NCBI GenBank assembly: GCA_963825095.1
Contig: CAWGRV010000008.1
Location: 1 to 62,355, forward strand
Length of the DNA: 62,355 bases
DNA from: an uncultured Nitrosopumilaceae archaeon
GTDB taxonomy: Archaea > Thermoproteota > Nitrososphaeria > Nitrososphaerales > Nitrosopumilaceae
Reading direction: 5' to 3'
The position numbers and the translations under genes are program-made. The notes below the pieces were generated by a model. It searched no databases and had not been told where the DNA came from. It saw only the letters and a program-made list of their open reading frames with translations. The first letter of the stretch is position 1, and each line of letters opens with the position of its first letter. Shown here piece by piece: positions 7,809 through 52,413 of this stretch.

Positions 7809-7861
7809 TATATAGAATGTCACTGAGTAATTTCTATCTTTAGCCAATAATAATTACGAAT

Positions 7862-17335: not shown

Positions 17336-17447
17336 CGCCCAGTATGCATGCGTGGAATTATTAATAAAAGAATGAAGGCGCTTAGACAGTGCATTGAGAT
17401 ATGAACATTGTATGCAAACCAATGCTCGGAACCATCGCCGCCGAGCA

Positions 17448-18953
17448 CAATGCTAGTAACTTAAGTAAATTTATTCATATTTTTTTTGATAATTTTAACA
17501 TTTTAATGGAAATGATTTCCTAAAATTTCATTTTTATAAATTTCAGAAAATTTCGCAAGAATTCTAAATTATTCATTTGGTCGGCTGTTGTACTTTCTTT
17601 CTGCAAAACATGAATACCTCCGGTAATCCGGCTGCCCATAAATTGATCATCTTATTACATTTTTATAAAAATGATAATGCATACCAATTTATGGGAAAAT
17701 AAAGATTATTTTTTTTCCACAGTGCAATACATGCGACCCTTACTACCCCATTTTGACCCCTTTGGTTTTTTCCTAATTCTCTTATGATGTCTGTTTTTTT
17801 GTATCAATGTAACGGTATCTTCTATTATTGATAATATTCTTAGGATTTTATTTATTCCCGTTTTGCGAGTATTGCCATAAAATAATGCATATAAGAGCTT
17901 CTTTACAAATTTCAGAGTATTCTTCCTGTTTATTTTATATTTATCGCAATTTATATTTTTCATAGCAATGTTTTCGAAAAAGCTATCAATAATAAAAATG
18001 AAATTATGTATAGCTATGTCCTGTTTAACTTTTCCAATTTCTTTTGATTCAATATCTTTCAAAGATAAATCATATTTAGCGTGTCTAAAATTTGTTTCGA
18101 TTTTCCATCGTTTCCAATATAAATCCATTAAAAAATTCATATCTTTATCTATCAATGTTGTTCCCAAAAAATAATCATTTCCATTAAGTTGGTATTTAAT
18201 TAGTTTCAACTTTATTAATGTTCCATCTATATTGATGTTTATTATTTTCTCTGAACAGTTACCATTTAGATGTTTTTTTACAATTGTCAGCGTTGAAACT
18301 AATCGAAATACAACATTTATGCCCTTTCCAATAAGTGTTCTAAATAATTCCTTACTAAAATAACCTCTATCCATTAATAAAACATCGCCAGGTCGAATAT
18401 ATTTTAATTGTCTTTTCAATATGAATCTTTCATCGGAAGAATCACTAATGGTATAATTGATGACCATTTCTTTATCGACATCATATAAACAACTTAACAA
18501 AGCGGTACAGTAATTTTGATTTTTGTCCAATTTAAATCCATTTTCACTAAGGGTAGCATTTAAGTTAATACCACTACCATCAACGGCAATATATCTTTTT
18601 TTATTATCTGCATATATAAAATCAATAAGTGATTGATTAAATATTTCAAAATGGGAATGATCAATATTAGATCGTTTATTAATAATGGCCGTTTTAGTTA
18701 CATTTAAAACATTCTTATATTTTAAAGACGAATTAACGATATCATAACTTAATTTCTCATTATTCTTACGGGAGAGAATATACACGATATCCTTAAAAAA
18801 AACCTTTCTCTTCCGTATCGAAGTGTAAAAATTCAAATCAGATAAAACTCGATTAATATAAATTTTAAAATTTTTAATGATTTTTATAGGGTCCATTAAA
18901 AATAATATATATAAAAAAATTAAAATTATAAAAAACTTAAGTTACCAGCATTG
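17448..18953 (-). mobile_element. IS4-family insertion sequence, copy 1 (1506 bp; 18-bp imperfect TIR CAATGCT[A/G]GTAACTTAAG)
   Basis: Left end caatgctagtaacttaag at 17448-17465; right end cttaagttaccagcattg at 18936-18953. The interior is about 99% identical to copy 2 at 40090..41595. No clean TSD here: the flanks cgccgagca and tgctgagcg are imperfect inverted GC-rich hairpin sequences. Confidence 0.8.
17706..18896 (-). CDS. IS4-family DDE transposase
   Basis: 396 aa. DDE residues lie in AVDGSG, LLMDRGY and KIETNF. LYWKRWKIETNFRHAK matches the IS4-family Y-(2)-R-(3)-E-(6)-K signature exactly. Confidence 0.85.
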   Translation of the reverse strand: MDPIKIIKNFKIYINRVLSDLNFYTSIRKRKVFFKDIVYILSRKNNEKLSYDIVNSSLKYKNVLNVTKTAIINKRSNIDHSHFEIFNQSLIDFIYADNKKRYIAVDGSGINLNATLSENGFKLDKNQNYCTALLSCLYDVDKEMVINYTISDSSDERFILKRQLKYIRPGDVLLMDRGYFSKELFRTLIGKGINVVFRLVSTLTIVKKHLNGNCSEKIININIDGTLIKLKLIKYQLNGNDYFLGTTLIDKDMNFLMDLYWKRWKIETNFRHAKYDLSLKDIESKEIGKVKQDIAIHNFIFIIDSFFENIAMKNINCDKYKINRKNTLKFVKKLLYALFYGNTRKTGINKILRILSIIEDTVTLIQKNRHHKRIRKKPKGSKWGSKGRMYCTVEKK

Positions 18954-20079: not shown

Positions 20080-21723
20080 ATGGGCTTTTATACAGTACTG
20101 TTAGTTACGATACCGGTCATCTTTTTAGTTTCACTTTTATTCAGAAAACGGCGATCCACGCCTTACGAAAAGTATCCTGGTCTCCATGGACGTTCAGGAA
20201 AAATGCTTTCCATGTATTACGTTATGACGAAGGGAGTTTGGAACTTTGTTATGTATCTTTACGAGAAATACAAATCATCCGATTACAGACCTATTCATTT
20301 TACTACGATGATGGGAAACCCGGCCCTATTTATCTACAATCCAGATCACATAATACAAGCGCTAACTGATATTGATCATTTTGAATGGACCAGTGAACGC
20401 GAAACGGTCGAACACGTTGGACGACTTCTCCCCGATGCAATTATAACGACATGGGATTACAAAGAGTGGCATCCAAAGAGAGCCCGGATAGTTTATTACT
20501 TGAGTGGTCGTGCGCTTGAAAAGGCAAAAGAATTCTCGATCCGGTGTGCACGCGAAAATTTTCTTCCCGAATTGAAGAAAATTGCGGACGGCAGGGCAGT
20601 GGATTTAGGACCTATCATTTTCAGGTACGCGACTTTGTCTACGTTGATGGAAATGTTCGATCTAAAACGCGAAGATATTCCGGATCAGACTTTGGATCAC
20701 ATCACAAAACTTTTCTCTTACATTTGGAAACGTATATTTAACCCCCTGATTCTCTTAAGAATGAAAATGGATAATATGATGCCTTTTCTTGGTTTGGAAA
20801 AAGAATACAAAGAAGATGTGCGAGCATTTTATGATTTATTAGCACCTCACCAAGAGCGTCTGAGATATGCGGATACATTGGGCGGATCAACGGTTCGAGG
20901 TCATACTAAATTTAATCCGAACTTTAAGAGCGCAGCAGTTTTTGCAAAATCGATCTTGAATATAGAAGAAGCCGAACTTGAACAACAGATGAAAGATCAT
21001 TATGCTGGATTAGAAAAAGAACGAGATGATCTTCACCATGTCTCATTCTATCTAGCCGGTAAACTGAAACTACCCGAAGATCAATTAGGGAAATTTGCAG
21101 GTCATCTGAGCGACGGTAATCCCATTGATTTACAAAAAGTGGTCAACGAAACATTGACCCTCATGTTAGGAGGCGCAGAAACGAATGCTATATTCTTCCA
21201 ATGGATTCTTCTACACATGTCTGCCACTCCTGCCACTCAACAACGCGTTTATGAAGAATTAAAAGACAAAGAACTGGTACCGATGCCCGAACGAAAGGGG
21301 CTTATCAATAATATTGTTCAAGAAGTATTCAGATTATCAGGTCCAACTTATTACAGTCAACGGGGTTGCCATACAAAAACAATACTTCAACCGGGAAATT
21401 TCGAAGTTCCAGCTGGCACAATCATGACCTTTTCACAATTACTACAAAGTACACTGGAAGAGAATTTTCCAGATGCACTAAAATTTGATCCGGATAGATG
21501 GGCACAAGAAATGAAGCCCAAAGCTGGTACTTTCCTACCATTTGTGAAGGGAAGAAGAACATGTCCTGGAGCGGAACAAGCCCAGTTCGAGGCGGCCTTA
21601 TTCATAACAGTTCTTTTCCAGAATTTTAGAATAGAACGCGCTGATGATAAAGAAATAGGAAAGCTTTGTGGGCTTACAGTCATGCCGGATCCACCCATTA
21701 TGTTAAAAATAAAGGCCGTGTAA
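20080..21723 (+). CDS. cytochrome P450 monooxygenase with N-terminal membrane anchor
   Basis: 547 aa. TM segment LLVTIPVIFLVSLLF, EVFR (ExxR), FDPDRW (PERF-like), and heme-binding loop FLPFVKGRRTCPGAEQA (FxxGxRxCxG). The gene is noticeably GC-richer than its surroundings. Confidence 0.85.
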   Translation: MGFYTVLLVTIPVIFLVSLLFRKRRSTPYEKYPGLHGRSGKMLSMYYVMTKGVWNFVMYLYEKYKSSDYRPIHFTTMMGNPALFIYNPDHIIQALTDIDHFEWTSERETVEHVGRLLPDAIITTWDYKEWHPKRARIVYYLSGRALEKAKEFSIRCARENFLPELKKIADGRAVDLGPIIFRYATLSTLMEMFDLKREDIPDQTLDHITKLFSYIWKRIFNPLILLRMKMDNMMPFLGLEKEYKEDVRAFYDLLAPHQERLRYADTLGGSTVRGHTKFNPNFKSAAVFAKSILNIEEAELEQQMKDHYAGLEKERDDLHHVSFYLAGKLKLPEDQLGKFAGHLSDGNPIDLQKVVNETLTLMLGGAETNAIFFQWILLHMSATPATQQRVYEELKDKELVPMPERKGLINNIVQEVFRLSGPTYYSQRGCHTKTILQPGNFEVPAGTIMTFSQLLQSTLEENFPDALKFDPDRWAQEMKPKAGTFLPFVKGRRTCPGAEQAQFEAALFITVLFQNFRIERADDKEIGKLCGLTVMPDPPIMLKIKAV

Positions 21724-22944: not shown

Positions 22945-23460
22945 TTAAATCGCTAAACTCTTTCTGTAAAAATTCTCCAAATCTTTTTCTTTTATTTTTC
23001 TTAGTCCATTTTTTATATTCCTCATCAATTTTTCCTCTTTGTAATTATTTTCTTTCCTTCTCACCATTGATTTCAACTTCGAAAATACTTTTTCTATTGG
23101 ATTATATTCTGGCGAATATGGTACGTTGTATATTATATTGTGATTATTTTTCGCCACATATTCTTTTAATCGTTTCGTGTGATGTATTCTCGCGTTGTCC
23201 ATCAATAAATATTTATTTTCGTCAATTTTGCTTATTAACTCTTCTATGAACTTTAGAAATGTCTCGCCATTTGCCGAATCTTTTATTATCTTTGTATGCA
23301 ATATTTTTCTGTTTGAAATCGCACATATCAGAGTGTATCTTTTGAAGTGTTTAAAGTATTTTTTTAATATCATTTTTTTGCCTTTTTCCGACCAACCGTA
23401 ATTATTTGCAATTCTATTATCAAAATGCGTTTCATCTATTGATATTATATTTCCCTGCAC
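22945..23460 (-). pseudogene. Tc1/mariner (IS630-like, DDE_3) transposase, catalytic-domain-only fragment
   Basis: 171 aa: DETHF...GWSEKG...LICAIS...LLMDNARIHH...YNVPYSPEYNPIEKVFSKLK is the classic DD(34)E catalytic core. The N-terminal HTH DNA-binding domain is missing, because upstream is occupied by an HNH gene. Confidence 0.7.
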
Positions 23461-25856: not shown

Positions 25857-27044
25857 ATGTTGTCTATAAATGCCGATTATTTTTTATACTTATTTTTGAT
25901 AATAACGATAGGGGTTAGCGGTTTCCTGGTCAAACGTTTGTATACCATTTTATTTTTACCCTATGAAATAAATGAACCAAAAATTGAAATTGAAATTGCC
26001 AGATCAAAAAATCCATTTTCGAGGAAATTCGGGAAATTACCTCCGCCATTCCCGAATTCCTGGTTCAGGATAGCATTCTCGAAAGAGATTCCAGTTGGGA
26101 CTGTAAAAAAAGTCGATGTCCTTGGACACCAATTGGCCATTTTCCGGGGCGAAAATGAAAGAGTATGTGCCTTGGATGCTTACTGTCCTCATTTAGGTGC
26201 CAATTTGGGTGATGGTACGGTTACGGGAAATTGTATACAATGTCCTTTTCATGGGTGGGAATTCAATGGTTCAGATGGAAAATGCATGCGCATACCTTAT
26301 AATGAGAATGTACCTGATTTTGCACGTGCCAAGACATATACTGTCCTAGAATCAAATAATATGATATTGCTTTGGCATGATGCTGAAAATAGAGATATTC
26401 AATGGTATCCACCTTTTGAAATTAAAGCCGATGATATTTCAAACGGCGAATTTCTATTTCACGGATCATCGGAACATTTTATCACCTGCCATATTCAAGA
26501 CATACCCGAGAATGGACCAGATCGAGCCCATTTAAATTTTCTGCATAAAAAACTAATTTTAGAATGGATTCCAATGGCAGAACATAAATGGGATGCAACC
26601 TGGCAACCTGGAAACGAGAAAGGAAAAGATGAACATTTAGCCTATATAAATTTGACACAAGAAATGGTGATCGCCGGATTTAGAATTCCTGGTACTTTTA
26701 TTTCTGTTAAAATCATTCAAATTGGACCTGGACTTGTTCAACTAATTTTCAATACATTTCTTGGAAGAATAGTGGTAATAGAAAGTGTTACACCAATAGA
26801 ACCGTTATTACAAAAGGCGGGTCATGTCGTATTCGCAGAAAAGAAAGTGCCACGCTTCATCGCCAAATTTGTTCTCTGGGGTCTATTAAAACAATTCGAG
26901 AGAGATGTACCCATATGGAATAAAAAAACTTTTATCTCTCAACCACTTGTAGTTAAAAACGATGGACCGTTATTAGTTTATCGTCGCTGGATGGCCAAAT
27001 TCTATTCAGAAAATTCTTTTAGGATAGAAGCGAAGGATTGGTGA
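25857..27044 (+). CDS. Rieske [2Fe-2S] non-heme iron oxygenase, Neverland/DAF-36 (cholesterol 7-desaturase)-like or KshA-like
   Basis: N-terminal TM segment. Rieske motif CPHLGANLGDGTVTGNCIQCPFHGWEF (CxH-x17-CxxH). Mononuclear-iron motif DIPENGPDRAHLNFLH (D-x3-D-x2-H-x4-H). Confidence 0.8.
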   Translation: MLSINADYFLYLFLIITIGVSGFLVKRLYTILFLPYEINEPKIEIEIARSKNPFSRKFGKLPPPFPNSWFRIAFSKEIPVGTVKKVDVLGHQLAIFRGENERVCALDAYCPHLGANLGDGTVTGNCIQCPFHGWEFNGSDGKCMRIPYNENVPDFARAKTYTVLESNNMILLWHDAENRDIQWYPPFEIKADDISNGEFLFHGSSEHFITCHIQDIPENGPDRAHLNFLHKKLILEWIPMAEHKWDATWQPGNEKGKDEHLAYINLTQEMVIAGFRIPGTFISVKIIQIGPGLVQLIFNTFLGRIVVIESVTPIEPLLQKAGHVVFAEKKVPRFIAKFVLWGLLKQFERDVPIWNKKTFISQPLVVKNDGPLLVYRRWMAKFYSENSFRIEAKDW

Positions 27045-32908: not shown

Positions 32909-33219
32909 ATGTATGTTAAGAAAAAATTTGAAATCTAATTCGAAAATGAATCTCGTTAAAAAACGAATAAAGAAACAAGCACAGTCAAATATAATGCCGA
33001 ACAGTCTTCCCCTCAATTCTCAGGATCCTTTTAAGATGGCATGCACACATGTTCATGTTCATACGATGAGGCGGCTATTTGAAATGATTAGTGATCCAGA
33101 TTCAAATGAATCATTGATTCAAACCAAGCAAGATGTGTATATTTTTTTATTAAAGGACGAAAAATTGATATTGGGACTTTTTAATTTACTTTTTTTATAT
33201 AATTAATTAAGTATTTAAC

Positions 33220-34706
33220 ATGCAGTCTATTTATTGCCTATTTTTTCTTGCATTCGTTTTGGTTTCTTATGCCTCCAAAAAGCCAAACATAATTTTCATT
33301 CTCACCGATGACCAAGATTACATGTTGGCTGGTTGGAATGATAAAAGTTACGAACTGATCGGAAAAAAAGGTATTGAATTTTATAGTTATTACGCACATT
33401 CACCGATATGCTGTGTTTCAAGAAGTGCCATCTTAACAGGGAGATACATGCATAATATCCGAGAAACTTCATTTCCAGGAATTTGTTCTGAAAATCGTGA
33501 TTGCGGCTGCATGTATATAAATACTGATTCAGACTTCGAAATGCATAACATTGCTGTTTACATGCAAGATCTTGGTTACGCGACAGGTTATTTTGGCAAA
33601 TATTTAAATAGTGAGGCACTCACTCCCTATTGTTCCACCAAAGGACAAAACAATACCGCAGCACCTTCGTGGGATCACTTCAGTATACAATGCGATATCA
33701 CTTATTTCAATGATACTTGGAGTGTAAATGGGAAAGTGTCCAAGTTTCCGGACTACACGATCGCAAAAATAGGAAATGATAGCGTAAAATGGTTAAATAA
33801 CATTTTGTCTAATCCGAATCACAAACCGGTTTTCGCGATCCTTGCACCACATGCCCCACACGCACCGTACACGCCGGCTCCGTGGTATGTCAATGCTACT
33901 ATTCCTGGTAGCAATCCGGTCTTACCGTCCTACAATTATTCAGCCATGGATCACCCAGAATTCATTGCTGATATTCCTCCCCTGAATCAAGTTTTGGAAA
34001 CAGAGTTAGAATTCATTTTTAAGCAGAGAGCAAGAACAATTTTGTCAGTCGATGATGTTACAACGGCGGTTTTAGATGTACTTAAAGAGTATGAAGAACT
34101 AGATAATACTTATATATTTTTTTCTTCAGATAACGGATATCATTTGGGTGAGTTTCGTTTGAATGCGGCAAAAACCCATCCTTACGAATTTGATATAAGA
34201 GTACCATTTGGGGTTAGAGGACCAAATATCATACCCGAGACGAAAGGATTTCTCCAATCTCGGGGATAGATTTAGCTCCAACTTGGCTTGAATTGGCTGG
34301 ACGAAAAGAAAAGCCCCGATTTATGGATGGAATATCTTTTGCGTCCTTATTAACTAACAATACTAGTAATTTTACTCAAAATGTAATCTTGATCGAATAT
34401 TACTCCATTAATAATGGGAGCAAAAATCTGTGGGATAATGGTAATCAGGCTTCAAATAACACACATAGATCCATAAGAATCATAGATCCAATCATGGGAA
34501 ATTTGTCTTACATGGAATACGCCGAAGTATCCGATTGGTCCTTTAGTGATATAATATTCTATGAACTATATGACTTAGCTGAAGATCCCTATCAGTTAAA
34601 CAATTTATACTCTACGATTTCGCCGAAAATGAAAACATTCTTGCATGATTCTCTGTTGAGGCTATGGAATTGCGGTGACGCGTATACTTGGAATAAAACT
34701 TCTTGA
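33220..34706 (+). pseudogene. sulfatase (N-acetylglucosamine-6-sulfatase-like) interrupted by a 1-bp frameshift
   Basis: ORF 33220..34269 (signal peptide, IIFILTDDQDY, SPICCVSRSAILTGRYMHN) and ORF 34293..34706 together align along the intact paralog 52440..54149. Comparison with the paralog (KVFVPISGVDLAPTWIELAGG) shows that a single missing C in the run ctcc[c]aatc near 34255 restores ...GFLPISGIDLAPTWLELAGRKEKPRFMDG.... Confidence 0.7.
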
Positions 34707-34989
34707 TTGTCCGAAATTGACTTATCTCAAACCGCCATTTGTCCTGCATTTATGATGAATCGAAGAATGCTTGTTTCTTGTGCTAATAATTATTTAGCTC
34801 TAGAAGTTTACTACAGTATCTTTTCGCTTGCTTTCCTTTTTATTTTAACCTACATCGTCGATTATTGCAGAAACTCTTGAAAAATCACTTATAAGTCCAA
34901 TTATTTGTATTACGATCAATGCATCACAATTCAAATCAAAAAAATGATAATACTTTCGCATCAAATTTTTTTATGCGTGTAGCTCGGAA

Positions 34990-36220: not shown

Positions 36221-37984
36221 ATGAGTGGCTCGAAGGAGTTATGTAAGAAAAATGATTTTAAAAATGAGGAAATTAAAGATGAAATAGAAGTTGTGCCATT
36301 ACAAACATACGAAACAGACGAATCAAGTAAAAAAGAAAAAAGATCTAAGGAACATAAACATCATAAGAAACATAAAAGTCATAAGCAATCCAAAAGCTCG
36401 AGGGAAGGAAAAAATTTGATTGGGCCAACAGGCCATACTGGTCCTACTGGACCAACAGGTCCTACTGGACCAACAGGTCCTACTGGACCAACAGGTCCTA
36501 CTGGTCTGGGAATTACTGGCCCAACAGGTTCTACAGGTTCCAATGGTCTGGGAATTACTGGTCCAACTGGAGTTCCTGGTCCAACTGGATCCATCGGGCC
36601 GGGCGCGAGCACTGTAGAAACAATTGCAGATTTAAGATTAACACAACCTTCATCAAACGTCGATTCAGTCACAGTTGAAGGTTATTATAACATCGGTGAT
36701 TTAGGCGGCGGGGAATTTGTTTATAATCCAAACGATACTACAAGCGCTGATAATGGAGGCACTATTATTGTGGCGAATGGTTTGTATCGTTGGTATCGGT
36801 TGAGTGATGGTGTTGTGACCGTGAAGCAATTTGGGGCCCAGGGCAATGGGATAAATGACGACACAACCGCCATTCAAAATGCTATAAATTTTGGTTCTGG
36901 CACGATTTATGTACCAAAAGGTAACTATTTAATAAGCCAATCAATTGTTTTCAATAATCCCGTAAACATAATCGGTGATGTACCAACAAGTTTTTTAAAT
37001 TCAGGAATGACGCCAACTAGTCCATATGCCTCTTGCCTAAAACTTGCGAACAACGCAAACTGCCCAATGTTTCTAATTAATACTTCTGAATCTCCGTATG
37101 GTGGTATTATTCAAAATCTAGAATTTAATGGCAATGATGCAAATCAAACTGGTGGCACAAATGTTTATGGCCTTTATTTTGCAAATGGCACCAGTGGTAC
37201 TATCGGCAGTCAATGGAAGATAGAAAAATGCTATATACATAATATTTATGATCACGGAATATTGATTGATACAGATCATATAGGGGTGAAACTCTTATAT
37301 GTTCAAGTATTTCGTGTGGGTACCGGCAGTTTAAGTGGATCTGGAATAGTTGCAAATGGAAGTAATGCAACGTTTTTCAATTGTAATATCGGGGAATGTT
37401 GGTACAATGGATTCTTGCTCCAAACCGGAAATAGTAACCTTTCCCAATGTAGTATATTTAGTTCTGGACGGTCATTTACTGGAACTGTCGGAACAGCAGC
37501 CGGTCGTGCCATTAATGTAGCTTCGAATGGTTCAAATAATATGATAATTGGTTGTACAATATCAGGAAATTATGGTGGTGGAATTTATCTGGACGGAGAC
37601 TACAACACTATTACGGGATGTTTATTTGCTGGAAATAACGGTGCTGAATTAACAGGTGTTCATGGATCTGATATTTATGTTGCCGATACTTCCGGTACGC
37701 AAACGATAGCAGCAAATGTGTTTGCTCAGCCTTCAGCGAACTATACAAGTCAATATGGCGTTCAATTCGCATCAAACGCAGCGGCCAGAATGAATAGCAA
37801 TACATTCGATAATACTAATTTTACGGTCTCTTTTACAAATCAAACGGCTTATATATTAGACGCCACGACTTCGGTGGCTGCAAGTACAGGATCAGCTATT
37901 TTACCATCAAATCCAGTTGGTTTTATAGAGGTGAATTTAAACGGCACCGGTACCTTATATAAAATACCGTATTACAATGTGTGA
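36221..37984 (+). CDS. collagen-like protein with pectate-lyase-fold (PF12708-like) right-handed beta-helix domain
   Basis: His/Lys-rich N-terminal leader ([16 protein letters not shown]). A G-P-T-G tandem array sits at about 36418-36600, built from 18-bp units. Then comes ...[31 protein letters not shown]...[39 protein letters not shown], typical of pectate-lyase-superfamily, tailspike or depolymerase N-termini. Parallel beta-helix repeats follow. Confidence 0.8.
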
Positions 37985-38050: not shown

Positions 38051-40089
38051 ATGAAATATTTCGCTTATATAAATATAATCAAAATGGATGAATCAGAGGA
38101 ATCCCAGAGAAATGATTTCAAAAATGATCAAATCGAAAATGAAATAGAAATTACGCCGTTGCAAATATACCGTAAATATGAGGTGAATAAAAAAGAAAAG
38201 GGATCCAAAAAACACAAACATCATAAAATGTGCAAAAGTGAGAAAAAATCCGGAGACTCGAGAAAAAAAAAATATTTAATTGGGCCAACTGGTCCTAGCG
38301 GCCCAACAGGCCACATTGGTCCAACCGGTCCAACTGGTAAAAACGGTCTGGGAATTACTGGCGCGACTGGATCGATCGGACCAACCGGTACAGAGTTAAC
38401 CTTGCCGAATATAGCATCCCTCAGGGCAACTGCTCCTAATTCGAGTTTGGAATCACTTGTTGTCGAAGGATATTACATTCCCGGGGATGGAGGTGGTGGT
38501 ACATTTTTTTATGATTCTACTGATGTAATAACCCCGGATAACGGGGGAACAGTAATCGTCGCATCTGGCTCATCTGACCCAACTGCAAGATGGAAAAGAA
38601 TTTATGTTCCGAGAAACATATCAGCAAAATGGTTTGGTGCAAAAGGAGACGGAGCCACAGATGACACCATCGCTTTGACAAATTGTTTAGATCTGGCTCA
38701 GAACCTGAATGGAGCCTCCATATATCTGCCTTCTGGAATTTATGTTATTTCGGAGACATTGAATGTAACAGTTTCGAATGTAAGCATTAAAGGTGATGGG
38801 CATCCCGTATGGACAGACGTCAATCCAGATCAAGACTATACTTGTATCAGTTGGAATGGGGCGAGCGGAGCAGCGATGCTTTCAGTATCGGCAATAGAAG
38901 GGCCGAGTAATGATGTTATAAGCTGCGTCGATGTAATCGGAGTGGGATTCTTGGGCAATGGAACAGCTGCCTACGGAATTGCAATTGGCTCGCAATGGTA
39001 TGGTAAATATGATGTTTATATAGAAAATTGTACGATAGCCCTCTTTTATACTTATTGCCTCGCCCAATTAGCCAAACATTGTGATGTACAAATGTTGGAT
39101 GTTTTATTAAATGGTAAACAGATTAGTGGAACAGGTGCGGGATTATTGTTGACCGGGAATGCTGAAAGTTTGCCGGCAGGCTCGGACACTTCGCTTTGTA
39201 TTTTCAGGCATGTGAGTGTGTTAATCGGCGAAAATAATACCGGAGTGATTTTAGGTAACACCGATCACAATTTATTTTTAATTCTAGCGACGCCACCAAA
39301 GACAGCCACAACCGGTCCAAGTGTTGTCTTTCAAGCGGCTGCAACGGGCCAAGAACCGGCGCGTTACAATCTCATAATTGAATTGGCTAGCGGAAAGGGA
39401 CAAGTAGTAGCTCAGGGAACGGAAACACAAGTCAATCCCTCTAATGGAAATATTATTCAATATATCAACTTCGTAGGAGCCGCATTGCCCTCTATTGGCA
39501 CCGGGGCCGACTTAGCTTGGGGTTCAGATAATAATATTTTCGGTCCGCGCGGATTTTTCGGAGTAGCGATTGCGGATCAATTCGGCACTGCGAGAACGGC
39601 TTACGATGCATTAACTACTGAATCTTTGAGAGTGGCTAATGGAATGAGTAACCATATTATCTTATCGAATCCGCCAAATACCGTAAATTGGAGTGTGAAT
39701 ATAGAAAATTCCAATGGTGAAATGAGAATGTACAGTACAACTAACCCAACTGAACCATTAGTCGTGAGTAATCCAATGGCCGCGGCATCACCAGTCGTTT
39801 TCGCGTCATCCGCTGATCTTTCTCATGAAATATCAGCCGCCGGTACTGAAACATTACGCCTAAATAATTCATCTAGTAATCATTTATTGTTGACAGCTAA
39901 TACGCACGATGCGGATCAATGGGGAATGAATATCGACGGATCAGGAAATTTAAATTTCACTCATCCGGCCGGGACGGGTACTGGAAGTTTTACCGGGGAT
40001 ATGACATTTAACAATCAATTAACAGTTACTGATAATTTCAATCCGCAGAGTAAAACCATATTTGGTGCCACTGCAAGTCCAGCACCGCA
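38051..40089 (+). pseudogene. collagen-like/beta-helix fibre protein, 5' part, disrupted by IS4-family insertion
   Basis: Same architecture as 36221..37984: K/H-rich leader, GPTG repeats, LRATAPNSSLESLVVEGYYIPGDGGGGTFFY...AKWFGAKGDGATDDTIAL. The native frame runs into the IS at 40090. The annotated ORF end (40165, ...HNASNLSKFIHIFFDNFNILMEMIS) is IS-encoded read-through. Confidence 0.75.
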
Positions 40090-41595
40090 CAATGCTAGTA
40101 ACTTAAGTAAATTTATTCATATTTTTTTTGATAATTTTAACATTTTAATGGAAATGATTTCCTAAAATTTCATTTTTATAAATTTCAGAAAATTTCGCAC
40201 GAATTCTAAATTATTCATTTGGTCGGCTGTTGTACTTTCTTTCTGCAAAACATGAATACCTCCGGTAATCCGGCTGCCCATAAATTGATCATCTTATTAC
40301 ATTTTTATAAAAATGATAATGCATACCAATTTATGGGAAAATAAAGATTATTTTTTTTCCACAGTGCAATACATGCGACCCTTACTACCCCATTTTGACC
40401 CCTTTGGTTTTTTCCTAATTCTCTTATGATGTCTGTTTTTTTGTATCAATGTAACGGTATCTTCTATTATTGATAATATTCTTAGGATTTTATTTATTCC
40501 CGTTTTGCGAGTATTGCCATAAAATAATGCATATAAGAGCTTCTTTACAAATTTCAGACTATTCTTCCTGTTTATTTTATATTTATCGCAATTTATATTT
40601 TTCATAGCAATGTTTTCGAAAAAGCTATCAATAATAAAAATGAAATTATGTATAGCTATATCCTGTTTAACTTTTCCAATTTCTTTTGATTCAATATCTT
40701 TCAAAGATAAATCATATTTAGCGTGTCTAAAATTTGTTTCGATTTTCCATCGTTTCCAATATAAATCCATTAAAAAATTCATATCTTTATCTATCAATGT
40801 TGTTCCCAAAAAATAATCATTTCCATTAAGTTGGTATTTAATTAGTTTCAACTTTATTAATGTTCCATCTATATTAATGTTTATTATTTTCTCCGAACAG
40901 TTACCATTTAGATGTTTTTTTACAATTGTTAGCGTTGAAACTAATCGAAATACAACATTTATGCCCTTTCCAATAAGTGTTCTAAATAATTCCTTACTAA
41001 AATAACCTCTATCCATTAATAAAACATCGCCAGGTCGAATATATTTTAATTGTCTTTTCAATATGAATCTTTCATCGGAAGAATCACTAATGGTATAATT
41101 GATGACCATTTCTTTATCAACATCATATAAACAACTTAACAAAGCGGTACAGTAATTTTGATTTTTGTCCAATTTAAATCCATTTTCACTAAGGGTCGCA
41201 TTTAAGTTAATACCACTACCATCAACGGCAATATATCTTTTTTTATTATCTGCATATATAAAATCAAGAAGTGATTGATTAAATATTTCAAAATGGGAAT
41301 GATCAATATTAGATCGTTTATTAATAATGGCCGTTTTAGTTACATTCAAAACATTCTTATATTTTAAAGACGAATTAACGATATCATAACTTAATTTCTC
41401 ATTATTCTTACGGGAGAGAATATACACGATATCCTTAAAAGAAACCTTTCTCTTCCGTATCGAAGTGTAAAAATTCAAATCAGATAAAACTCGATTAATA
41501 TAAATTTTAAAATTTTTAATGATTTTTATAGGGTCCATTAAAAATAATATATATAAAAAAATTAAAATTATAAAAAACTTAAGTTACCAGCATTG
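40090..41595 (-). mobile_element. IS4-family insertion sequence, copy 2, with 9-bp target-site duplication AGCACCGCA
   Basis: TIRs at 40090-40107 and 41578-41595. The direct repeat agcaccgca lies at 40081-40089 and 41596-41604. It is inserted inside the collagen/beta-helix gene. Confidence 0.85.
40348..41538 (-). CDS. IS4-family DDE transposase (copy 2)
   Basis: 396 aa, differing from copy 1 at 3 residues (F33S, I-to-L, T-to-S); same YREK signature. Confidence 0.85.
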   Translation of the reverse strand: MDPIKIIKNFKIYINRVLSDLNFYTSIRKRKVSFKDIVYILSRKNNEKLSYDIVNSSLKYKNVLNVTKTAIINKRSNIDHSHFEIFNQSLLDFIYADNKKRYIAVDGSGINLNATLSENGFKLDKNQNYCTALLSCLYDVDKEMVINYTISDSSDERFILKRQLKYIRPGDVLLMDRGYFSKELFRTLIGKGINVVFRLVSTLTIVKKHLNGNCSEKIININIDGTLIKLKLIKYQLNGNDYFLGTTLIDKDMNFLMDLYWKRWKIETNFRHAKYDLSLKDIESKEIGKVKQDIAIHNFIFIIDSFFENIAMKNINCDKYKINRKNSLKFVKKLLYALFYGNTRKTGINKILRILSIIEDTVTLIQKNRHHKRIRKKPKGSKWGSKGRMYCTVEKK

Positions 41596-42258: not shown

Positions 42259-43599
42259 TTAAGACGGAGTATAGGAGAGACTCGCGCTAAATGAAAGTTG
42301 AGTAATATCAGCGGCAGCTGCATCCGACGACGCATTCGCAGGTCTTATTCTGATACCAATTCGATCTCCGACACTAACCACTAATGGTCCGACGCTGAAG
42401 TTAGTAGCAGCGTAAAAAGTACCGGCAACAATACCGGGACCAGCAAATGTGACTGAACAATTCAATGGGGTAGTAACATATGACGATGCGACATGATTCG
42501 TCCCATCATTCGGGCTGGATGGTGCGCGAAAAACGGTAAATATATACGTCAACGGATTTGTATTAATGAAAGCGACAGATGCAACAAGTAAATCTACGCT
42601 GACCTGAAGGTTCTGCACGGTACCATTGAACGGTATCGGAAACGCAAATCCGGCAGCTTGTGGCGGCATTGTCGATTCACCACTGCCATTAATAGTTTCG
42701 ACTGTATTATTACCAAAACCCATTAGAATTGGAGCGGCTTGAACAACTGTTGCCCCGCTAATAATAATTCCAGTTGAAAAAGGGATTATTCCTGCCGAGC
42801 CGGCGATCCCCTGCGGTCCCGTCGGGCCAATTAATCCCTGTAAGCCCTGTATTCCTTGAATGCCTTGTGGTCCGGCAATACCTTGCGGACCAGTTGGCCC
42901 AATAGGTCCTTGCGGACCAACTGGACCGGCAGGACCAACGGAACCTGTACCGCCTGTACCCCCACCCGCAGCACCAGTCGGACCCAGAGGGCCTGCAACG
43001 CCCTGAATACCCTGGATACCCTGAATGCCTTGAGTGCCGGTAGGACCAATGGGTCCCTGGAGACCGGTAACACCCTGCAAACCTTGAATTCCTTGGATGC
43101 CCTGTATCCCCGGTATTCCCGGTATTCCTATCGGACCGGTGGGACCGGTGATTCCGGAAGAACCCGCGCCAGTCGGGCCAGTTGGACCAGTTGGACCAGT
43201 CGGGCCAGTTGGGCCAGTTGGACCGATAAATCCATTCAAACCTTGTTTACCTCTTCTGCCTCTTTTTCCCCTACTACCCTTCTTGCCCCTTTCACCCCGG
43301 GTACATTTTTCAGAATGATGCTTTTTATGATGAACTTTTTTGCTACAAGATTCTTTTGAATGATGCTCCTTACCATGGGATCTTTTGCTGCTCGCTTTTT
43401 TAGAATGATGGTCCTTACTGTGAGATTTTGTGCTACAGGATTCTTTTGAATGATGCTGTTGCCTGTGAGATTTTTTCCGGTAGCTACTTTTTTTTTTTAA
43501 TCCATCACGATGCCCATATTTTTTGCCTAGGCGATCAATGGCCTTTAGCCCGAAAAACCGTTTCACTTGACGACGATCTTTGTCATTTCTTTTTTTCAT
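42259..43599 (-). CDS. collagen-like protein with His-rich N-terminal leader and C-terminal globular domain
   Basis: The leader has repeated HHSKESCS/KKxHH units. About 200 residues of G-x-y (GPTGPTG..., GIQGIQG...) follow. The C-terminal roughly 150-aa domain is possibly C1q/BclA-like, by inference only. Confidence 0.75.
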
Positions 43600-43812: not shown

Positions 43813-46311
<2,499 letters not shown>

Positions 46312-46638: not shown

Positions 46639-47967
46639 TTAAAATTTATAGACGTAAGTTGTTCCATTATTAAAGGTGGTCGGGGTCGGAACATCAAAAT
46701 AGGGCAAATAGTAGGCAAAATTTGTATTTTCACCAATTACGAGTCTTCTTTCGGACGAAGATAAGGCAGCCCCGAAGAAATCCAGCTGATGGGGATTTGG
46801 ATTCAATAGCGTGGTTAGGTATGTCCATTGATTGTGGCAAAGTTTATAAATCTCGACGCTTCCAACGTGTTTCATTGTCCCATCCAATGAACTGTTATTA
46901 TTTGTAATGAAGATATATTCTTCGTGTAGAACCAAGTTCGTTCCAAATGCTCCTTGAAGAGCTGGAACTTGCGGATAAATCTTTGTAACAAATTGCCAAT
47001 TTCTGACACCATTATTCTCATAGGCACTGTAAATATATACTGCACCGGCCAAGAAAACGGCTTGTGGATTTGTACTGTCGAGCGGAGCGCCAATTATAGC
47101 CCAATCCTTATTGAATTCGATCCTGAATCCGAACAAATCACCAATACCCTCCGGGCTGGGCGGCGGAGGGCTATTTCCCCTTAATAATTCGACAAATTCC
47201 CATTGACCGCTATAATCATTTAATTTATAGAAATAGGCGTAACCATTATCTGGCGGGTTGGACCCAAATTGTGTGTAATTACCTTCGGCCGTGATGAAGG
47301 CATACTTACCGCGAACGAAGCAAGCACCACCAATTGCCTGATTGAAAATCGGACCAGTGGGACTCGTAATTTTTTGGGTTAATGTCCAAAGGCTACCTAT
47401 TAAGCGGAAGACGTAAACGTTCCCAGCCAAGGGAACCCCTTCTATTTGATTCTGAGGAGCCCCGATAAAGGCCCACTCATCATTGAAATCCATATATTGA
47501 CCACCAAATTCGATTCCATAAGTTACGCTGTCGTAAACATAAGTAGGGGGATCGTTGGGTAGCAAAGTTTGTTTTAAATTCCATTGTCCGTTGCAAAGAT
47601 AAAAGACTAAAACAGCACCACCAGGATGCGGGTCGGGGCCCGGACCTCCAGATACTTTAGAGCCAAAAGAGCACATCGCCCATTTGTCGTCGATTTTGAG
47701 CGAATTGAATGCCCCAGGGACATCGCTAGACAATAGCTCTGAAAAAGGAGCTTGTGATTCAATAAATTGATCATGATGCTCATTGTAAAAGATTAGAGCA
47801 CCGGCATTGGAGACTGAATCAACCGTGGCATTTTGGGCCGTAATGGCAAGATTATGCGAATCTACAGATACGGCTGCCCCAAAACCATCTCCCAAAGTGG
47901 TATCGCCAACAACACTTCCCGGTAAAGGTGAAGCCATCGTTTGAATTAGTGTAAATTGTTCAGACAT
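46639..47967 (-). CDS. FG-GAP repeat (integrin-alpha-like beta-propeller) protein
   Basis: Repeated FG-x(n)-D-x-IGAP-x(n)-G-x-VY motifs (FGGQYMDFNDEWAFIGAPQN...GNVYVF, FGFRIEFNKDWAIIGAPLDS...GAVYIYS). Paralog of 48162..49511. Confidence 0.6.
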   Translation of the reverse strand: MSEQFTLIQTMASPLPGSVVGDTTLGDGFGAAVSVDSHNLAITAQNATVDSVSNAGALIFYNEHHDQFIESQAPFSELLSSDVPGAFNSLKIDDKWAMCSFGSKVSGGPGPDPHPGGAVLVFYLCNGQWNLKQTLLPNDPPTYVYDSVTYGIEFGGQYMDFNDEWAFIGAPQNQIEGVPLAGNVYVFRLIGSLWTLTQKITSPTGPIFNQAIGGACFVRGKYAFITAEGNYTQFGSNPPDNGYAYFYKLNDYSGQWEFVELLRGNSPPPPSPEGIGDLFGFRIEFNKDWAIIGAPLDSTNPQAVFLAGAVYIYSAYENNGVRNWQFVTKIYPQVPALQGAFGTNLVLHEEYIFITNNNSSLDGTMKHVGSVEIYKLCHNQWTYLTTLLNPNPHQLDFFGAALSSSERRLVIGENTNFAYYLPYFDVPTPTTFNNGTTYVYKF

Positions 47968-48161: not shown

Positions 48162-49511
48162 TTAATATTTGTAAACATAGGTGTTTCCATTATTAAAAGT
48201 AGTCGGTACGGGCACGTCAGTATACGGCAGATAATAAGAGAAATTGGGATTCTCACCAATTACAAGTCTATTCTGGGACGCAGATAAGTCTCCGCCGAAG
48301 AAATCTAATTGATGAGGATTAGGGTTTAATATGGTGGTAAGATAGGTCCATTGGCCATTGCAAAGCTTATAAACTTCAACGGATCCGACATGTTTCATGG
48401 TACCATCTGATGAACTGTTGTTATTTGTAATGAAGATATAGTCTTCGTATAGAACCAAATTTGTTCCAAATGCTCCTTGAACGGCTGGATTTTGAGGATA
48501 CAGCTTTGTGACAAATTGCCAATTAGTGACTCCTTTATTATTATACGCACTGTAAATATACACTGCACCGGCGATAAAAACACCTTGCGGGTTTGTATTG
48601 TCGAGTGGGGCTCCGATAACGGCCCAATTGTTATTAAATTCAATTCTGAATCCAAATAAATCACCAATGCCATTTGGGCTGGGCGGCAGAGGACTGTTTC
48701 CTCTCAATAGTTCGACGAATTCCCACTGATTTGTGTGTTGGTTTAATTGATAGAAGTAAGCATAACCGTTATCGGGAGGATTAGAACCGAATTGTGTATA
48801 GTTACCTTCCGCGGTAATAAAGGCATAATTACCATTTATATAAGAAGCCCCTCCGATAGATTGATTGAAAATCGGCCCAGTTGGACTTGTGATCTTTTGG
48901 GTTAATTGCCATTTTTCGTTCTCCAGATGAAAAACGGATACATTTCCAGCCAAGGGTACACCGTCTATCTGATTTTGTGGAGCGCCTATAAAAGCCCAAT
49001 CACCATCAAAATCCAAATATTGACCTCCGAATTCAATTCCGTAAGTGAAATTATTATAAACATAAGTGGGAGGATCACTTGGTAATAGAGTTTGAACCAA
49101 ATTCCACTGATTACCTTCGAGTTTAAAAACCAGTACGCAACCGCCCGGATGTGCAGCGGGGCCGGGACCTCCAGAGACTTTTGCACCAAATCCTCCCATC
49201 GCCAGACATCCTTGAATTTTAAGGGCGTTAAATGCGCCCGGGACATCGCTAGTAAGTAATTCTGAGAATGGCGGCTGAGACTGTGAAAACTGATTGTGCT
49301 TCTGAGTGTAGAAGAGTAAAGCCCCAGTATTGGAAATAGAATCAACAGTGGCATTCTGAGCAGAGACAACTAACTGATCACCGTCTATGGAGACAGCGGA
49401 GCCGAAACCGTCGCCCAAGGTTGTGGTACCCACAACGCTACCCGGCAAAGGAGAACTAAGAGTTTGAAGGAGTACGAATTGTTCAGACATTTCTATAATG
49501 TTAGGGAACAA
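48162..49511 (-). CDS. FG-GAP repeat (integrin-alpha-like beta-propeller) protein
   Basis: 449 aa, about 75% identical to 46639..47967. Confidence 0.6.
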   Translation of the reverse strand: MFPNIIEMSEQFVLLQTLSSPLPGSVVGTTTLGDGFGSAVSIDGDQLVVSAQNATVDSISNTGALLFYTQKHNQFSQSQPPFSELLTSDVPGAFNALKIQGCLAMGGFGAKVSGGPGPAAHPGGCVLVFKLEGNQWNLVQTLLPSDPPTYVYNNFTYGIEFGGQYLDFDGDWAFIGAPQNQIDGVPLAGNVSVFHLENEKWQLTQKITSPTGPIFNQSIGGASYINGNYAFITAEGNYTQFGSNPPDNGYAYFYQLNQHTNQWEFVELLRGNSPLPPSPNGIGDLFGFRIEFNNNWAVIGAPLDNTNPQGVFIAGAVYIYSAYNNKGVTNWQFVTKLYPQNPAVQGAFGTNLVLYEDYIFITNNNSSSDGTMKHVGSVEVYKLCNGQWTYLTTILNPNPHQLDFFGGDLSASQNRLVIGENPNFSYYLPYTDVPVPTTFNNGNTYVYKY

Positions 49512-50283: not shown

Positions 50284-50343
50284 TTGAAATATAAGTTTTA
50301 TTTATTCACTTATTTGAAATAATATGAAATTAAAAAAAATCAA

Positions 50344-50489
50344 TTTTCAGATTATTATCGCAATCCTCAATCCTATTTTGAATCTTTCTCGTAAACTCGC
50401 AAGATTAAAAATTGAATTTTCAGATTATTATCTTAATCCTCAATCCTATTTTGAATCTTTCTCGTAAACTCGCAAGATTAAAAATTGAA
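50344..50489. repeat. 73-bp perfect-ish tandem duplication (2 units), each carrying AAAATTGA
   Basis: Units are 50344-50416 and 50417-50489: ttttcagattattatc[g/t][c/t]aatcctcaatcctattttgaatctttctcgtaaactcgcaagattaaaaattgaa. They lie immediately upstream of the small ORF 50538..50723. Confidence 0.8.
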
Positions 50490-51887: not shown

Positions 51888-52413
51888 ATGTCGCACGATC
51901 CAATTTGCCAAGATAATTTATGCATACTTGGAAAATATTTTGTAATAGAAATTGAATATTTGATTTTAGAATTTTTGGACCCCATCAAAGATTACAAAAA
52001 TTTAGTTTTGGTCAATAAATATTACAATGATTTAGTACAACAAGATCAAACTTTCATTCAAAAATTTTAAAAAAGCGAATTTTGCTTTGCCAAAATTTGT
52101 GGTAGAAAGTTGCTATCGAGTATTTAGTAACCGAGATCGAAACTTTATTGGTGTGTGTAGTCTTGGTCACTTTAATCTTGCAAAATATCTATACAAAAAA
52201 AATAAGCCAAAAATAGAAGGTTTCGTTTCATCTATTTTCTATGCCGCAGCATTAGAACATAAACCTGCGATGATGCTATGGTTATTAGAAATGCAAACTC
52301 TTTGTGAAATAATTGAAGTAACTAAATGCAGTGATAGAATGGAATATTTTTGGCGGAATAGAGAAGCAATTATTAAAAAAATCAAACGACAAACTGATGT
52401 CGAAAAAAATTGA
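51888..52413 (+). pseudogene. truncated, frameshifted F-box/ankyrin paralog
   Basis: ORF 51888..52070 (ILGKYFVIEIEYLILEFLDPIKDYKNLVLVNKYYNDL, F-box-like) and ORF 52087..52413 (VCSLGHFNLAKYLY..., ANK-like) are in different frames. Together they align with the N-terminal roughly 170 aa of 28597..29763. Confidence 0.4.

What the first reader, a model, noticed from the sequence alone, without database searches (positions are those of the whole stretch)
33220..34706. Two sulfatase paralogs with non-canonical C-C-[V/I]-S-R formylglycine motif; one inactivated by a single-base homopolymer deletion, the other carrying a C-terminal TM anchor
Both copies (33220.. and 52440..) are N-acetylglucosamine-6-sulfatase-like, with a signal peptide, TDDQDY metal site and the sulfatase signature region. 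However the obligatory Pro of the C-x-P-x-R FGly motif is Val in one copy (CCVSRS) and Ile in the other (CCISRS). Canonical FGE requires that Pro, so these enzymes may be unmodified, modified by another system, or catalytically repurposed. Copy 1 is split by a 1-bp deletion in ctcc[c]aatc near 34255. Copy 2 is intact and ends in a hydrophobic tail anchor. No FGE gene is visible in the window.
Basis: partly seen in the sequence, partly recalled or inferred. Interest (0 to 1): 0.55.

Follow-up and report, generated by a model that had tools for sequence, protein, structure and literature searches.

The report
Giant-virus sulfatase pair with odd motif
Two copies of a sugar-sulfatase gene in a mimivirus-like giant-virus contig carry valine or isoleucine where sulfatases almost always have a proline next to the catalytic cysteine; this is a rare variant that recurs in unrelated organisms, and one copy is a recently broken pseudogene.

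Summary
33220..34706 and 52461..54149 are paralogous type-I (formylglycine-dependent) sulfatases resembling N-acetylglucosamine-6-sulfatase, 68% identical in protein. The motifs are C-C-V-S-R in copy 1 and C-C-I-S-R in copy 2, aligned to C-x-P-x-R of solved and animal sulfatases. All other catalytic residues are intact.

The proline is a consensus, not an obligation. SulfAtlas reports Pro 87%, Ala 9%, and every other residue under 1%. In my census of 264 relatives, Val arose independently in at least six lineages, including a nematode, a foraminifer and a bacterial MAG. All of them keep the full catalytic set.

The viral lineage (both copies plus one metagenomic ortholog at 60% identity) is under strong purifying selection. 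The enzymes are therefore most likely still matured and active. This is inferred, not shown.

Copy 1 is broken at two places: the 1-nt deletion at 34256 and an out-of-frame stretch with TGA at 34704. A TPP1-like gene nearby is shattered, so gene decay here is real. Copy 2 is a type-I membrane protein, not a tail-anchored one. No FGE gene lies in the window.

The context is a Mimiviridae-like virus, shown by the AAAATTGA early-promoter motif. Interest is modest.

The parts
33161..33168 (+). AAAATTGA early-promoter-type motif, 59 nt upstream of the copy-1 ATG
   Evidence: The motif is enriched in the window: 37 found against 21.6+-4.5 expected. In 13 of 40 ORFs it lies 50-74 nt upstream in the correct orientation.
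33220..34269 (+). Sulfatase copy 1, 5' part (349-aa ORF). It carries a signal-like N-terminus, TDDQDY at 33304..33321 and CCVSR at 33409..33423, and ends at a TAG created by the frameshift.
   Evidence: Exactly this 349-aa product is also called on an independent Logan assembly of run ERR12036782.
34254..34257 (+). Site of the 1-nt deletion in copy 1 (CC where the ancestral reading needs CCC)
   Evidence: DNA alignment with copy 2. The repaired translation matches copy 2 and ortholog P0002. Frame 0 is open from 34218, across the site.
34257..34706 (+). Sulfatase copy 1, 3' part in the -1 frame (SGSH_C-like C-terminal subdomain), ending at TGA 34704..34706
34698..34745 (+). Second lesion of copy 1. 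A net +1 indel, then a +8 indel relative to copy 2, put about 13 codons out of register. The homologous peptide DCPKLTYLKPP is readable only in the +1 frame, and the in-frame reading hits TGA.
   Evidence: The outgroup P0002 shares the copy-2 frame (SNCPQFINLKED).
34707..34880 (+). Possible remnant of a copy-1 C-terminal tail with a hydrophobic stretch (YYSIFSLAFLFILTYIV), in the same frame as 34257..34703
   Evidence: Hydropathy. tblastn of copy 2 extends to 34841. DNA similarity to the copy-2 tail is weak here.
52406..52413 (+). AAAATTGA motif, 55 nt upstream of the copy-2 ATG at 52461; this supports that ATG as the start
   Evidence: The database product P0001 (562 aa) starts at this ATG.
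52461..54149 (+). Sulfatase copy 2, intact (562 aa). Signal-like N-terminus aa 1-22, TDDQDY at 52554..52571, CCISR at 52659..52673, 12 N-x-S/T sequons.
   Evidence: AlphaFold2 model with mean pLDDT 91. Best structural matches are S1_11 6-O-sulfatases.
54021..54092 (+). Copy-2 C-terminal transmembrane helix (about aa 521-544), followed by an 18-aa tail RIYNMIWISKQEIYRQKL
   Evidence: Hydropathy maximum 2.68. The model has a single helix over 521-561. Ortholog P0002 lacks it.

Best explanation
What it is. These are two paralogous genes of a Mimiviridae-like giant virus. They encode secretory-pathway type-I (formylglycine-dependent, family S1) sulfatases of the GlcNAc/Gal-6-O-sulfatase kind. They were most likely captured from a eukaryote and then duplicated.

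The motif. In this small viral lineage the residue two positions after the catalytic cysteine is Val (ancestral) or Ile (copy 2) instead of Pro. Everything else needed for catalysis is kept.

Likely mechanism (inferred).
- The signal peptide takes the protein into the host ER.
- There Cys67 (copy-2 numbering) is oxidised to formylglycine by an FGE. This would be the host's ER enzyme or a viral one outside this contig. The Val/Ile variant is probably accepted, perhaps less efficiently.
- The hydrated aldehyde, with Ca2+ held by D33/D34/D307/N308 and with R71, K131, H217 and K321, removes 6-O-sulfate from sulfated glycans.

The two copies. Copy 2 is held in the membrane as a type-I protein with its catalytic domain lumenal or extracellular. 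Copy 1 is a recent pseudogene, with a 1-nt deletion plus an out-of-frame stretch carrying a stop. It sits in a genome region where other genes are also decaying.
For: Shown:
- Family and fold.
- The nine catalytic and metal residues are invariant in both copies and in ortholog P0002.
- The lineage is conserved. Copy 1, copy 2 and P0002 (60% identity, on a separate JGI contig next to an RCC1 gene, as in the window) all carry V/I.
- Selection is purifying. dN is 0.22 with synonymous sites saturated; omega is about 0.09-0.12 where it can be estimated.
- Val at this position recurs independently in Plectus (nematode), Bolivina (foraminifer), a 'Ca. Moranbacteria' MAG clade (two subclades 67-70% identical, both Val), a CAVSR/CAASR clade and others. 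All of these keep the catalytic set.
- One 58%-GC contig carries a CAVSR sulfatase next to a canonical CSPSR one.
- Viral context: the AAAATTGA motif lies 50-74 nt upstream of 13 of 40 ORFs, including both copies. The gene content is Ank/F-box, BTB, collagen, P450 and RCC1.
- Pseudogene status: two lesions, and the same truncated product in a second assembly. A10 and T11 runs elsewhere are in frame inside long ORFs. A TPP1-like gene at 56844..58665 is split into at least six pieces.
- Copy 1 shows no rate acceleration: 32 against 45 lineage-specific amino-acid changes. The break is therefore recent.

Inferred: ER entry, FGly formation, substrate class and topology.
Against: - No experiment or paper found here shows that any FGE converts C-x-V-x-R or C-x-I-x-R.
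- PMC2459300 assigns CXPXR to FGE and CXAXR to anaerobic maturases.
- Ile occurs in 1 of 264 sequences.
- No FGE lies in the window, and the rest of the genome and the host are unknown.
- No NCLDV core gene lies in the window, so the viral assignment rests on promoter motif and gene content.
- A Logan gene call reads through the TGA at 34704, so that stop may be polymorphic.
Confidence: 0.68

Rival explanations
1. The Val/Ile change blocks formylglycine formation. The proteins would then be non-catalytic, for example binders of sulfated glycans or decoys, rather than enzymes.
For: - Pro is the consensus in 87% of S1 sulfatases, and Val/Ile are each under 1%.
- From memory, not verified here: Dierks et al. 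1999 (EMBO J 18:2084) reported that Pro71 and Arg73 of arylsulfatase A matter for FGly formation.
- One copy has been allowed to decay.
Against: - All nine catalytic and metal-binding residues are kept in both copies, in the ortholog, and in every independent Val lineage. A binding-only protein would not be expected to preserve the full set under omega of about 0.1.
- Val alternates with Ala, an accepted motif residue, inside one clade at 65-69% identity.
Confidence: 0.14
2. The enzymes are active but are matured by something other than a canonical FGE. This could be a virus-encoded or specialised FGE, or a radical-SAM maturase. Alternatively they use the unmodified cysteine as the nucleophile.
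For: - CXAXR sulfatases are attributed to anaerobic radical-SAM maturases rather than FGE (PMC2459300), so non-Pro motifs can go with another maturation route.
- The rest of the viral genome is unseen.
Against: - No such gene is present in 62 kb.
- Val variants occur in animals and a foraminifer, where only ER FGE is known.
- A canonical CSPSR sulfatase sits beside a CAVSR one on a single contig, which suggests one shared system.
- No cysteine-nucleophile S1 sulfatase is known to me (own knowledge).
Confidence: 0.08
3. Copy 1 is really intact, and the frameshift is a sequencing or assembly error.
For: - The lesion is a length change in a short C run.
- Copy 1 shows no excess of amino-acid change.
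- A second assembly appears to lack the TGA at 34704.
Against: - The same truncated 349-aa product comes from an independent k-mer assembly of the reads.
- The run is only 2-3 bases long, while A10 and T11 runs in the same contig are in frame.
- A second, independent frame disruption lies 450 nt downstream.
- A neighbouring TPP1-like gene is broken at least five times while 2-kb ORFs nearby are intact. The breaks are therefore local decay, not uniform error.
Confidence: 0.1

Closest known systems
N-acetylglucosamine-6-sulfatase (GNS) and SULF1/2, SulfAtlas subfamily S1_6
   Same: - Best-scoring named homologs are animal GNS at 32-35% identity.
- Shared C-C dipeptide at the catalytic site, GKYLN in place of GKWH, SDNG, and the SGSH_C-type C-terminal subdomain.
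- Secretory signal and many N-glycosylation sequons.
   Different: - Val/Ile instead of Pro in C-C-P-S-R.
- Encoded by a virus.
- Copy 2 has a C-terminal transmembrane helix, which is absent from every other sequence in the 15-sequence alignment, including a fish GNS ortholog.
- Substrate was not tested, and SulfAtlas subfamily HMMs were not available.
Bacterial S1_11 6-O-sulfatases (BuS1_11 7lha, BT3177 7p24, BT4656 5g2v, Akkermansia 7ebp)
   Same: - Closest solved structures to the AlphaFold2 model (Foldseek E about 2e-27, TM 0.61-0.71).
- Closest PDB sequences.
- The catalytic motif aligns residue for residue.
   Different: - Only 20-23% identity.
- The bacterial enzymes carry the canonical C/S-x-P-x-R.
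Giant-virus sulfatases such as TetV-1 TetV_008 and TetV_050
   Same: Virus-encoded sulfatases are already reported in a Mimiviridae-related alga virus. One of them is detected in the virion proteome and is proposed to remodel host surface glycans (PMC12126595).
   Different: Sequence relationship to the window proteins was not tested here. No relative was found in IMG/VR with the single-protein scan.
CX[P/A]XR / SXPXR sulfatase maturation systems (FGE; anaerobic sulfatase-maturing enzymes)
   Same: The Cys and the Arg of the core motif, and the downstream xxxLTGR auxiliary stretch, are all present.
   Different: The middle residue is neither Pro nor Ala. Which maturase, if any, accepts it is unknown.

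Membership tests
Family S1 (formylglycine-dependent, type I) sulfatases | Sulfatase domain (Pfam PF00884) above the gathering score | tested here: met
   119.6 and 105.9 bits against a cut-off of 25.
Family S1 (formylglycine-dependent, type I) sulfatases | Catalytic Cys/Ser, and Arg four residues later, at the start of the active-site helix | tested here: met
   C67 and R71 are invariant in the alignments. The helix starts at residue 67 in the model.
Family S1 (formylglycine-dependent, type I) sulfatases | Pro or Ala at position +2 of the motif (updated PROSITE/SulfAtlas pattern [CS]-x-[PA]-x-R) | tested here: not met
   Val in copy 1 and Ile in copy 2. This is a consensus position, not an absolute one: about 4% of the 4058 accepted S1 sequences carry other residues, each under 1% (PMC5066984). 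I do not treat it as excluding membership.
Family S1 (formylglycine-dependent, type I) sulfatases | Ca2+ ligands (D-D near the N-terminus, D-N/H later) and catalytic Lys/His/Lys | tested here: met
   D33, D34, K131, H217, D307, N308 and K321 are all present.
Family S1 (formylglycine-dependent, type I) sulfatases | Alkaline-phosphatase-like fold with a C-terminal subdomain | tested here: met
   Model pLDDT 91 and pTM 0.87. The top 50 Foldseek PDB hits are S1 sulfatases, plus one closely related phosphonate monoester hydrolase (4uph).
Family S1 (formylglycine-dependent, type I) sulfatases | The cysteine is actually converted to formylglycine | not testable with these tools
   Needs mass spectrometry of the expressed protein.
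GNS-like 6-O-sulfatases (S1_6 / S1_11 neighbourhood) | Closest homologs and closest structures are 6-O-sulfatases; C-C dipeptide and GKYLN motif | tested here: met
GNS-like 6-O-sulfatases (S1_6 / S1_11 neighbourhood) | Hydrolysis of GlcNAc-6-sulfate or Gal-6-sulfate | not testable with these tools
   Needs an enzyme assay.
Mimiviridae-like giant virus genome | AAAATTGA early-promoter motif about 50-60 nt upstream of many start codons (Suhre et al. 2005, from own knowledge) | tested here: met
   37 occurrences against 21.6+-4.5 expected, with 0 of 100 shuffles reaching 37. 13 of 40 ORFs have it 50-74 nt upstream in the right orientation.
Mimiviridae-like giant virus genome | Nucleocytoviricota core genes (major capsid protein, PolB, A32 ATPase, VLTF3) | tested here: not met
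   None among the ORFs of 120 aa or more scanned with Pfam. The window looks like a variable, accessory region, so this is uninformative rather than contrary.
Tail-anchored membrane proteins | A single C-terminal TM segment and no N-terminal signal sequence | tested here: not met
   Copy 2 also has an N-terminal hydrophobic signal-like segment (hydropathy; helix 2-18). Type-I topology fits better.
Pseudogene (copy 1) | Reading frame disrupted relative to the paralog and an outgroup ortholog | tested here: met
   A -1 shift at 34256/7 and an out-of-register segment with TGA at about 34700-34745.
Pseudogene (copy 1) | Relaxed selection (excess amino-acid change on its branch) | tested here: not met
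   32 changes in copy 1 against 45 in copy 2, with P0002 as outgroup. This is consistent only with a very recent inactivation.

The most novel reading that the evidence does not exclude
A beta-branched residue (Val/Ile) at +2 of the formylglycine motif marks a functionally distinct class of S1 sulfatases. Maturation of this class would depend on an FGE with altered specificity, or on no FGE at all. A giant virus would then use it to make its sulfatase independent of, or selectively dependent on, the host maturation machinery.
Probability: 0.08. Interest if true: 0.6.

Novelty: new member of a known kind. Interest (0 to 1): 0.3.

Why it matters
If the Val/Ile enzymes prove active, they widen the accepted substrate motif of formylglycine-generating enzymes beyond C-x-[P/A]-x-R. 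That matters for annotating sulfatases, since pattern-based rules would miss them, and for designing aldehyde tags. They would also add a membrane-anchored glycan 6-O-sulfatase to the host-glycan tools carried by giant viruses. As it stands, this is a rare but recurrent natural variant in an otherwise ordinary sulfatase, plus an ordinary recent pseudogene.

Tried and rejected
- IMG/VR scan with copy 2: no relatives found.
- HMMER against 1.84 billion representatives: only one further member of the viral clade, P0002.
- Literature searches for C-x-V-x-R motifs, LCTASR, or formylglycine together with mimivirus: nothing relevant.
- Papers I wanted were not held: Dierks 1999, Roeser 2006, Rush and Bertozzi 2008, Appel and Bertozzi 2015. 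What I say about them is from memory.
- Programmed -1 ribosomal frameshifting at 34256: rejected. No X-XXY-YYZ slippery heptamer is visible in acgaaaggatttctccaatc, and a second lesion lies downstream.
- Genetic code 4 as the reason for the Logan gene call that spans TGA 34704: rejected. The same contig's genes stop at TGA elsewhere.
- Guessing the Logan 185-aa product as a single substitution of the TGA: none of six variants is in the collection. A search with the 127-aa fragment returned only itself.
- Pfam on the separate pieces at 57480..58665: no hits. The concatenated pieces did match TPP1 in the PDB.
- Homology of the copy-1 hydrophobic tail to the copy-2 TM helix: could not be established at DNA level.

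Full report
**Observation.** The window holds two sulfatase genes on the + strand. Copy 1 is an ORF of 349 aa at 33220..34269 that continues in another frame to 34706. Copy 2 is intact at 52461..54149, giving 562 aa from the ATG; the ORF listing starts it at TTG 52440. All parts hit Pfam Sulfatase (PF00884) and the SGSH_C C-terminal domain. The copies are 71% identical in DNA over 1486 nt. They are 68% identical in protein once copy 1 is frame-repaired. TDDQDY is present in both.

**The motif.** It is C-C-V-S-R in copy 1 (33409..33423, Val codon GTT) and C-C-I-S-R in copy 2 (52659..52673, Ile codon ATA). HMMER aligns '...SPICCISRSAILTGR' to '...NSLCGPSRACILTGR' of the solved Akkermansia sulfatase 7ebp. 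MAFFT aligns it to CCPSR of fish GNS and other relatives. The cysteine is therefore the formylglycine cysteine, and the consensus proline really is replaced. There is no alternative intact CxPxR elsewhere in the protein.

**Context.**
- The window is a whole 62,355-bp contig held by NCBI and ENA. It has about 33% GC and is densely packed with intronless ORFs on both strands.
- Gene content is typical of the accessory regions of giant viruses: ankyrin/F-box, BTB, RING, collagen plus beta-helix proteins, RCC1, kinase, cytochrome P450, a KshA-like Rieske oxygenase and transposases.
- The octamer AAAATTGA is known to me as the Mimiviridae early-promoter motif (Suhre et al. 2005, own knowledge). 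It is enriched: 37 occurrences against 21.6+-4.5 expected, with none of 100 shuffles reaching 37.
- It lies 50-74 nt upstream of 13 of 40 start codons in the right orientation. This includes both sulfatase copies, at 59 and 55 nt.
- The P450 has a 67%-identical homolog on a 460-kb metagenomic contig with HNH endonucleases and Ank/F-box genes. That homolog also turns up in the sequencing run that carries the window's sulfatase genes.
- No Nucleocytoviricota core gene is in the window, so the assignment 'Mimiviridae-like virus' rests on motif and gene content.

**How unusual is Val/Ile?** In the SulfAtlas analysis of 4058 S1 sulfatases, the proline is conserved in 87%. It is replaced mainly by alanine (369 sequences), and every other residue is under 1% (PMC5066984). 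The updated signature therefore reads [PA].

I took the motif from 264 GNS-like proteins returned by the two large searches and the cluster look-ups. The counts are Pro 241, Val 16, Ala 4, Ser 2 and Ile 1. Nearest-neighbour comparison shows the Val forms are not one clade. For each lineage below, the closest relatives outside it carry Pro.
- The viral lineage: closest Pro relatives at about 44%.
- Bolivina argentea, a foraminifer.
- Plectus sambesii, a nematode: closest are animal GNS at 46-49%.
- A CAVSR clade whose sisters are CAASR at 65-69% identity.
- A CCVAR clade that includes a 'Candidatus Moranbacteria' MAG protein. Its two subclades, 67-70% identical, both carry Val.
- Two further singletons.

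Every one of these proteins keeps D33, D34, C67, R71, K131, H217, D307, N/H308 and K321. On one 58%-GC contig a CAVSR sulfatase sits beside a canonical CSPSR sulfatase. Val at +2 is thus a rare but recurrent and conserved natural state. Ile is a one-off.

**The viral lineage.** Across 1.84 billion cluster representatives, the only other member is P0002, at 60% identity to copy 2 with motif CCVSR. Its 3.8-kb, 31%-GC JGI contig has an RCC1-repeat gene next to the sulfatase, as the window has upstream of copy 1. Between any two of the three genes dN is 0.22-0.33. Synonymous sites are saturated. Where dS can be estimated, omega is 0.09-0.12. The proteins have therefore been under strong purifying selection while carrying Val/Ile.

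**Structure.** AlphaFold2 with a 69-sequence alignment gives mean pLDDT 91 and pTM 0.87. The active-site helix begins at C67, as in solved sulfatases. The best Foldseek matches in the PDB are 6-O-sulfatases of subfamily S1_11: 7lha, 7p24, 5g2v and 7ebp, with E about 2e-27. Named sequence homologs are animal N-acetylglucosamine-6-sulfatases. GNS belongs to S1_6.

**Most likely function.** These steps are inferred. The signal-like N-termini and 12 N-x-S/T sequons point to entry into the host ER. Eukaryotic FGE acts on nascent sulfatases there (PMC2459300). The conserved catalytic set argues that formylglycine is still made and that the enzymes remove 6-O-sulfate from sulfated glycans.

I found no experiment on C-x-V/I-x-R. 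From memory, Pro-to-Ala changes lower but do not abolish conversion (Dierks 1999), and bacterial FGEs accept some non-canonical tags (Rush and Bertozzi 2008). I could not retrieve these papers.

No FGE or radical-SAM maturase is encoded in the window, so the maturase would be the host's or lie elsewhere in the viral genome. Giant-virus sulfatases as such are already reported, for example TetV_008 in the TetV-1 virion (PMC12126595).

**Copy 2 topology.** A strongly hydrophobic stretch at about aa 521-544 is followed by an 18-residue tail. Together with the signal peptide this makes a type-I membrane protein, not a tail-anchored one. P0002 and all other relatives in the alignment lack this extension.

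**Copy 1 first lesion.**
- One base is missing at 34256/34257 relative to copy 2. Adding a C restores FLPISGIDLAPTW.
- The downstream frame is open from 34218, across the site.
- The same 349-aa truncated product is called on an independent Logan assembly of run ERR12036782.
- The affected run is only CC. A10 and T11 runs lie in frame inside long ORFs of the same contig. A homopolymer error is therefore unlikely.

**Copy 1 second lesion.**
- About 450 nt downstream, copy 1 differs from copy 2 by a net +1 indel and then a +8 indel.
- Between them about 13 codons are out of register. The conserved peptide DCPKLTYLKPP (copy 2 MCPELSYLKPP, P0002 NCPQFINLKED) can be read only in the +1 frame.
- The running frame hits TGA at 34704..34706. 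This removes a cysteine that is conserved in at least 90% of the 69-sequence alignment.

**Timing and neighbourhood of the copy 1 break.**
- With P0002 as outgroup, copy 1 has 32 lineage-specific amino-acid changes and copy 2 has 45. The inactivation is therefore recent.
- Decay is not isolated. A tripeptidyl-peptidase-1-like sedolisin gene at 56844..58665 is split into at least six pieces in different frames. The concatenated pieces match TPP1 (PDB 3edy) at E = 2e-39.
- Neighbouring 2-kb ORFs are intact.

**Open point.** The Logan assembly calls a 185-aa gene equivalent to 34323..34880, which spans the TGA. The caller uses TGA as a stop elsewhere on that contig. The two assemblies must therefore differ there. 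I could not recover that sequence. The stop at 34704 may be polymorphic. If so, copy 1 recently had its own hydrophobic tail at 34707..34880.

**Verdict.** The finding is a new member of a known enzyme family with a rare motif variant, plus an ordinary recent pseudogene. Whether FGE converts C-x-V/I-x-R is a small, cleanly testable biochemical question.

Noticed in passing
window 56844..58665 (+): A tripeptidyl-peptidase-1-like sedolisin (S53) gene is shattered into at least six ORF pieces in different frames. It still carries an AAAATTGA motif 61 nt upstream. The concatenated pieces match human TPP1 (3edy) at E = 2e-39. Like GNS, TPP1 is a lysosomal hydrolase (own knowledge).
   Followed up: partly
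window 17445..18953 and 40087..41595: A 1509-bp repeat, 99.3% identical, each copy carrying a 396-aa DDE_Tnp_1 transposase on the minus strand: an IS-like element in two copies. The second copy overlaps the last 79 nt of ORF 38051..40165, so that ORF's C-terminus comes from the element.
   Followed up: partly
window 22945..23460 (-): A 171-aa ORF with a DDE_3 (IS630/Tc1-like) endonuclease domain and a GTG start. It is probably a transposase fragment.
   Followed up: no
window, 13 sites including 20020, 25800, 30576, 31182, 33161, 49639, 52406, 56783 (+) and 6329, 30532, 51786, 54736 (-): AAAATTGA lies 50-74 nt upstream of 13 of 40 ORF starts, the Mimiviridae early-promoter pattern. It is also contained in short tandem duplications at 50334..50489 (83-bp unit, 95% identity) and 58664..58806 (73-bp unit, 100% identity).
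   Followed up: partly
window 34323..34880 against the Logan contig of ERR12036782: The independent assembly calls a 185-aa gene across the TGA at 34704..34706, although it uses TGA as a stop elsewhere. The two assemblies must differ here. The sequence could not be retrieved.
   Followed up: partly
window 20080..21723, 25857..27044, 2267..3880, 159..896; locus L003: A cluster of oxidative and lipid-type enzymes: cytochrome P450, a KshA-like Rieske oxygenase, a BBE/FAD oxidase and a CTP_transf_1 cytidylyltransferase. The P450 has a 67% homolog on a 460-kb contig, next to a second P450 and a short-chain dehydrogenase.
   Followed up: no
window 46639..47967 / 48162..49490; 36221..37984 / 38051..40165; 42259..43599; 43813..46023: Tandem paralog pairs: FG-GAP proteins 77.6% identical, and collagen-repeat plus pectate-lyase-like beta-helix proteins. 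There are also further collagen-repeat proteins in a local GC-rich (about 43%) stretch.
   Followed up: no
window 58916..59254 and 59257..60417 (+): An SPFH/Band-7 gene is preceded by a 112-aa ORF in another frame, with hydrophobic content. This may be another frameshifted N-terminus. The piece has no Pfam hit.
   Followed up: no
window 9556..12878: About 3.3 kb without any ORF of 120 aa or more, in an otherwise densely coding contig. Not examined.
   Followed up: no
L002 5597..7261 and 7371..8981: A 58%-GC marine metagenome contig carries a CAVSR sulfatase adjacent to a canonical CSPSR sulfatase. Both motif types therefore coexist in one genome.
   Followed up: partly
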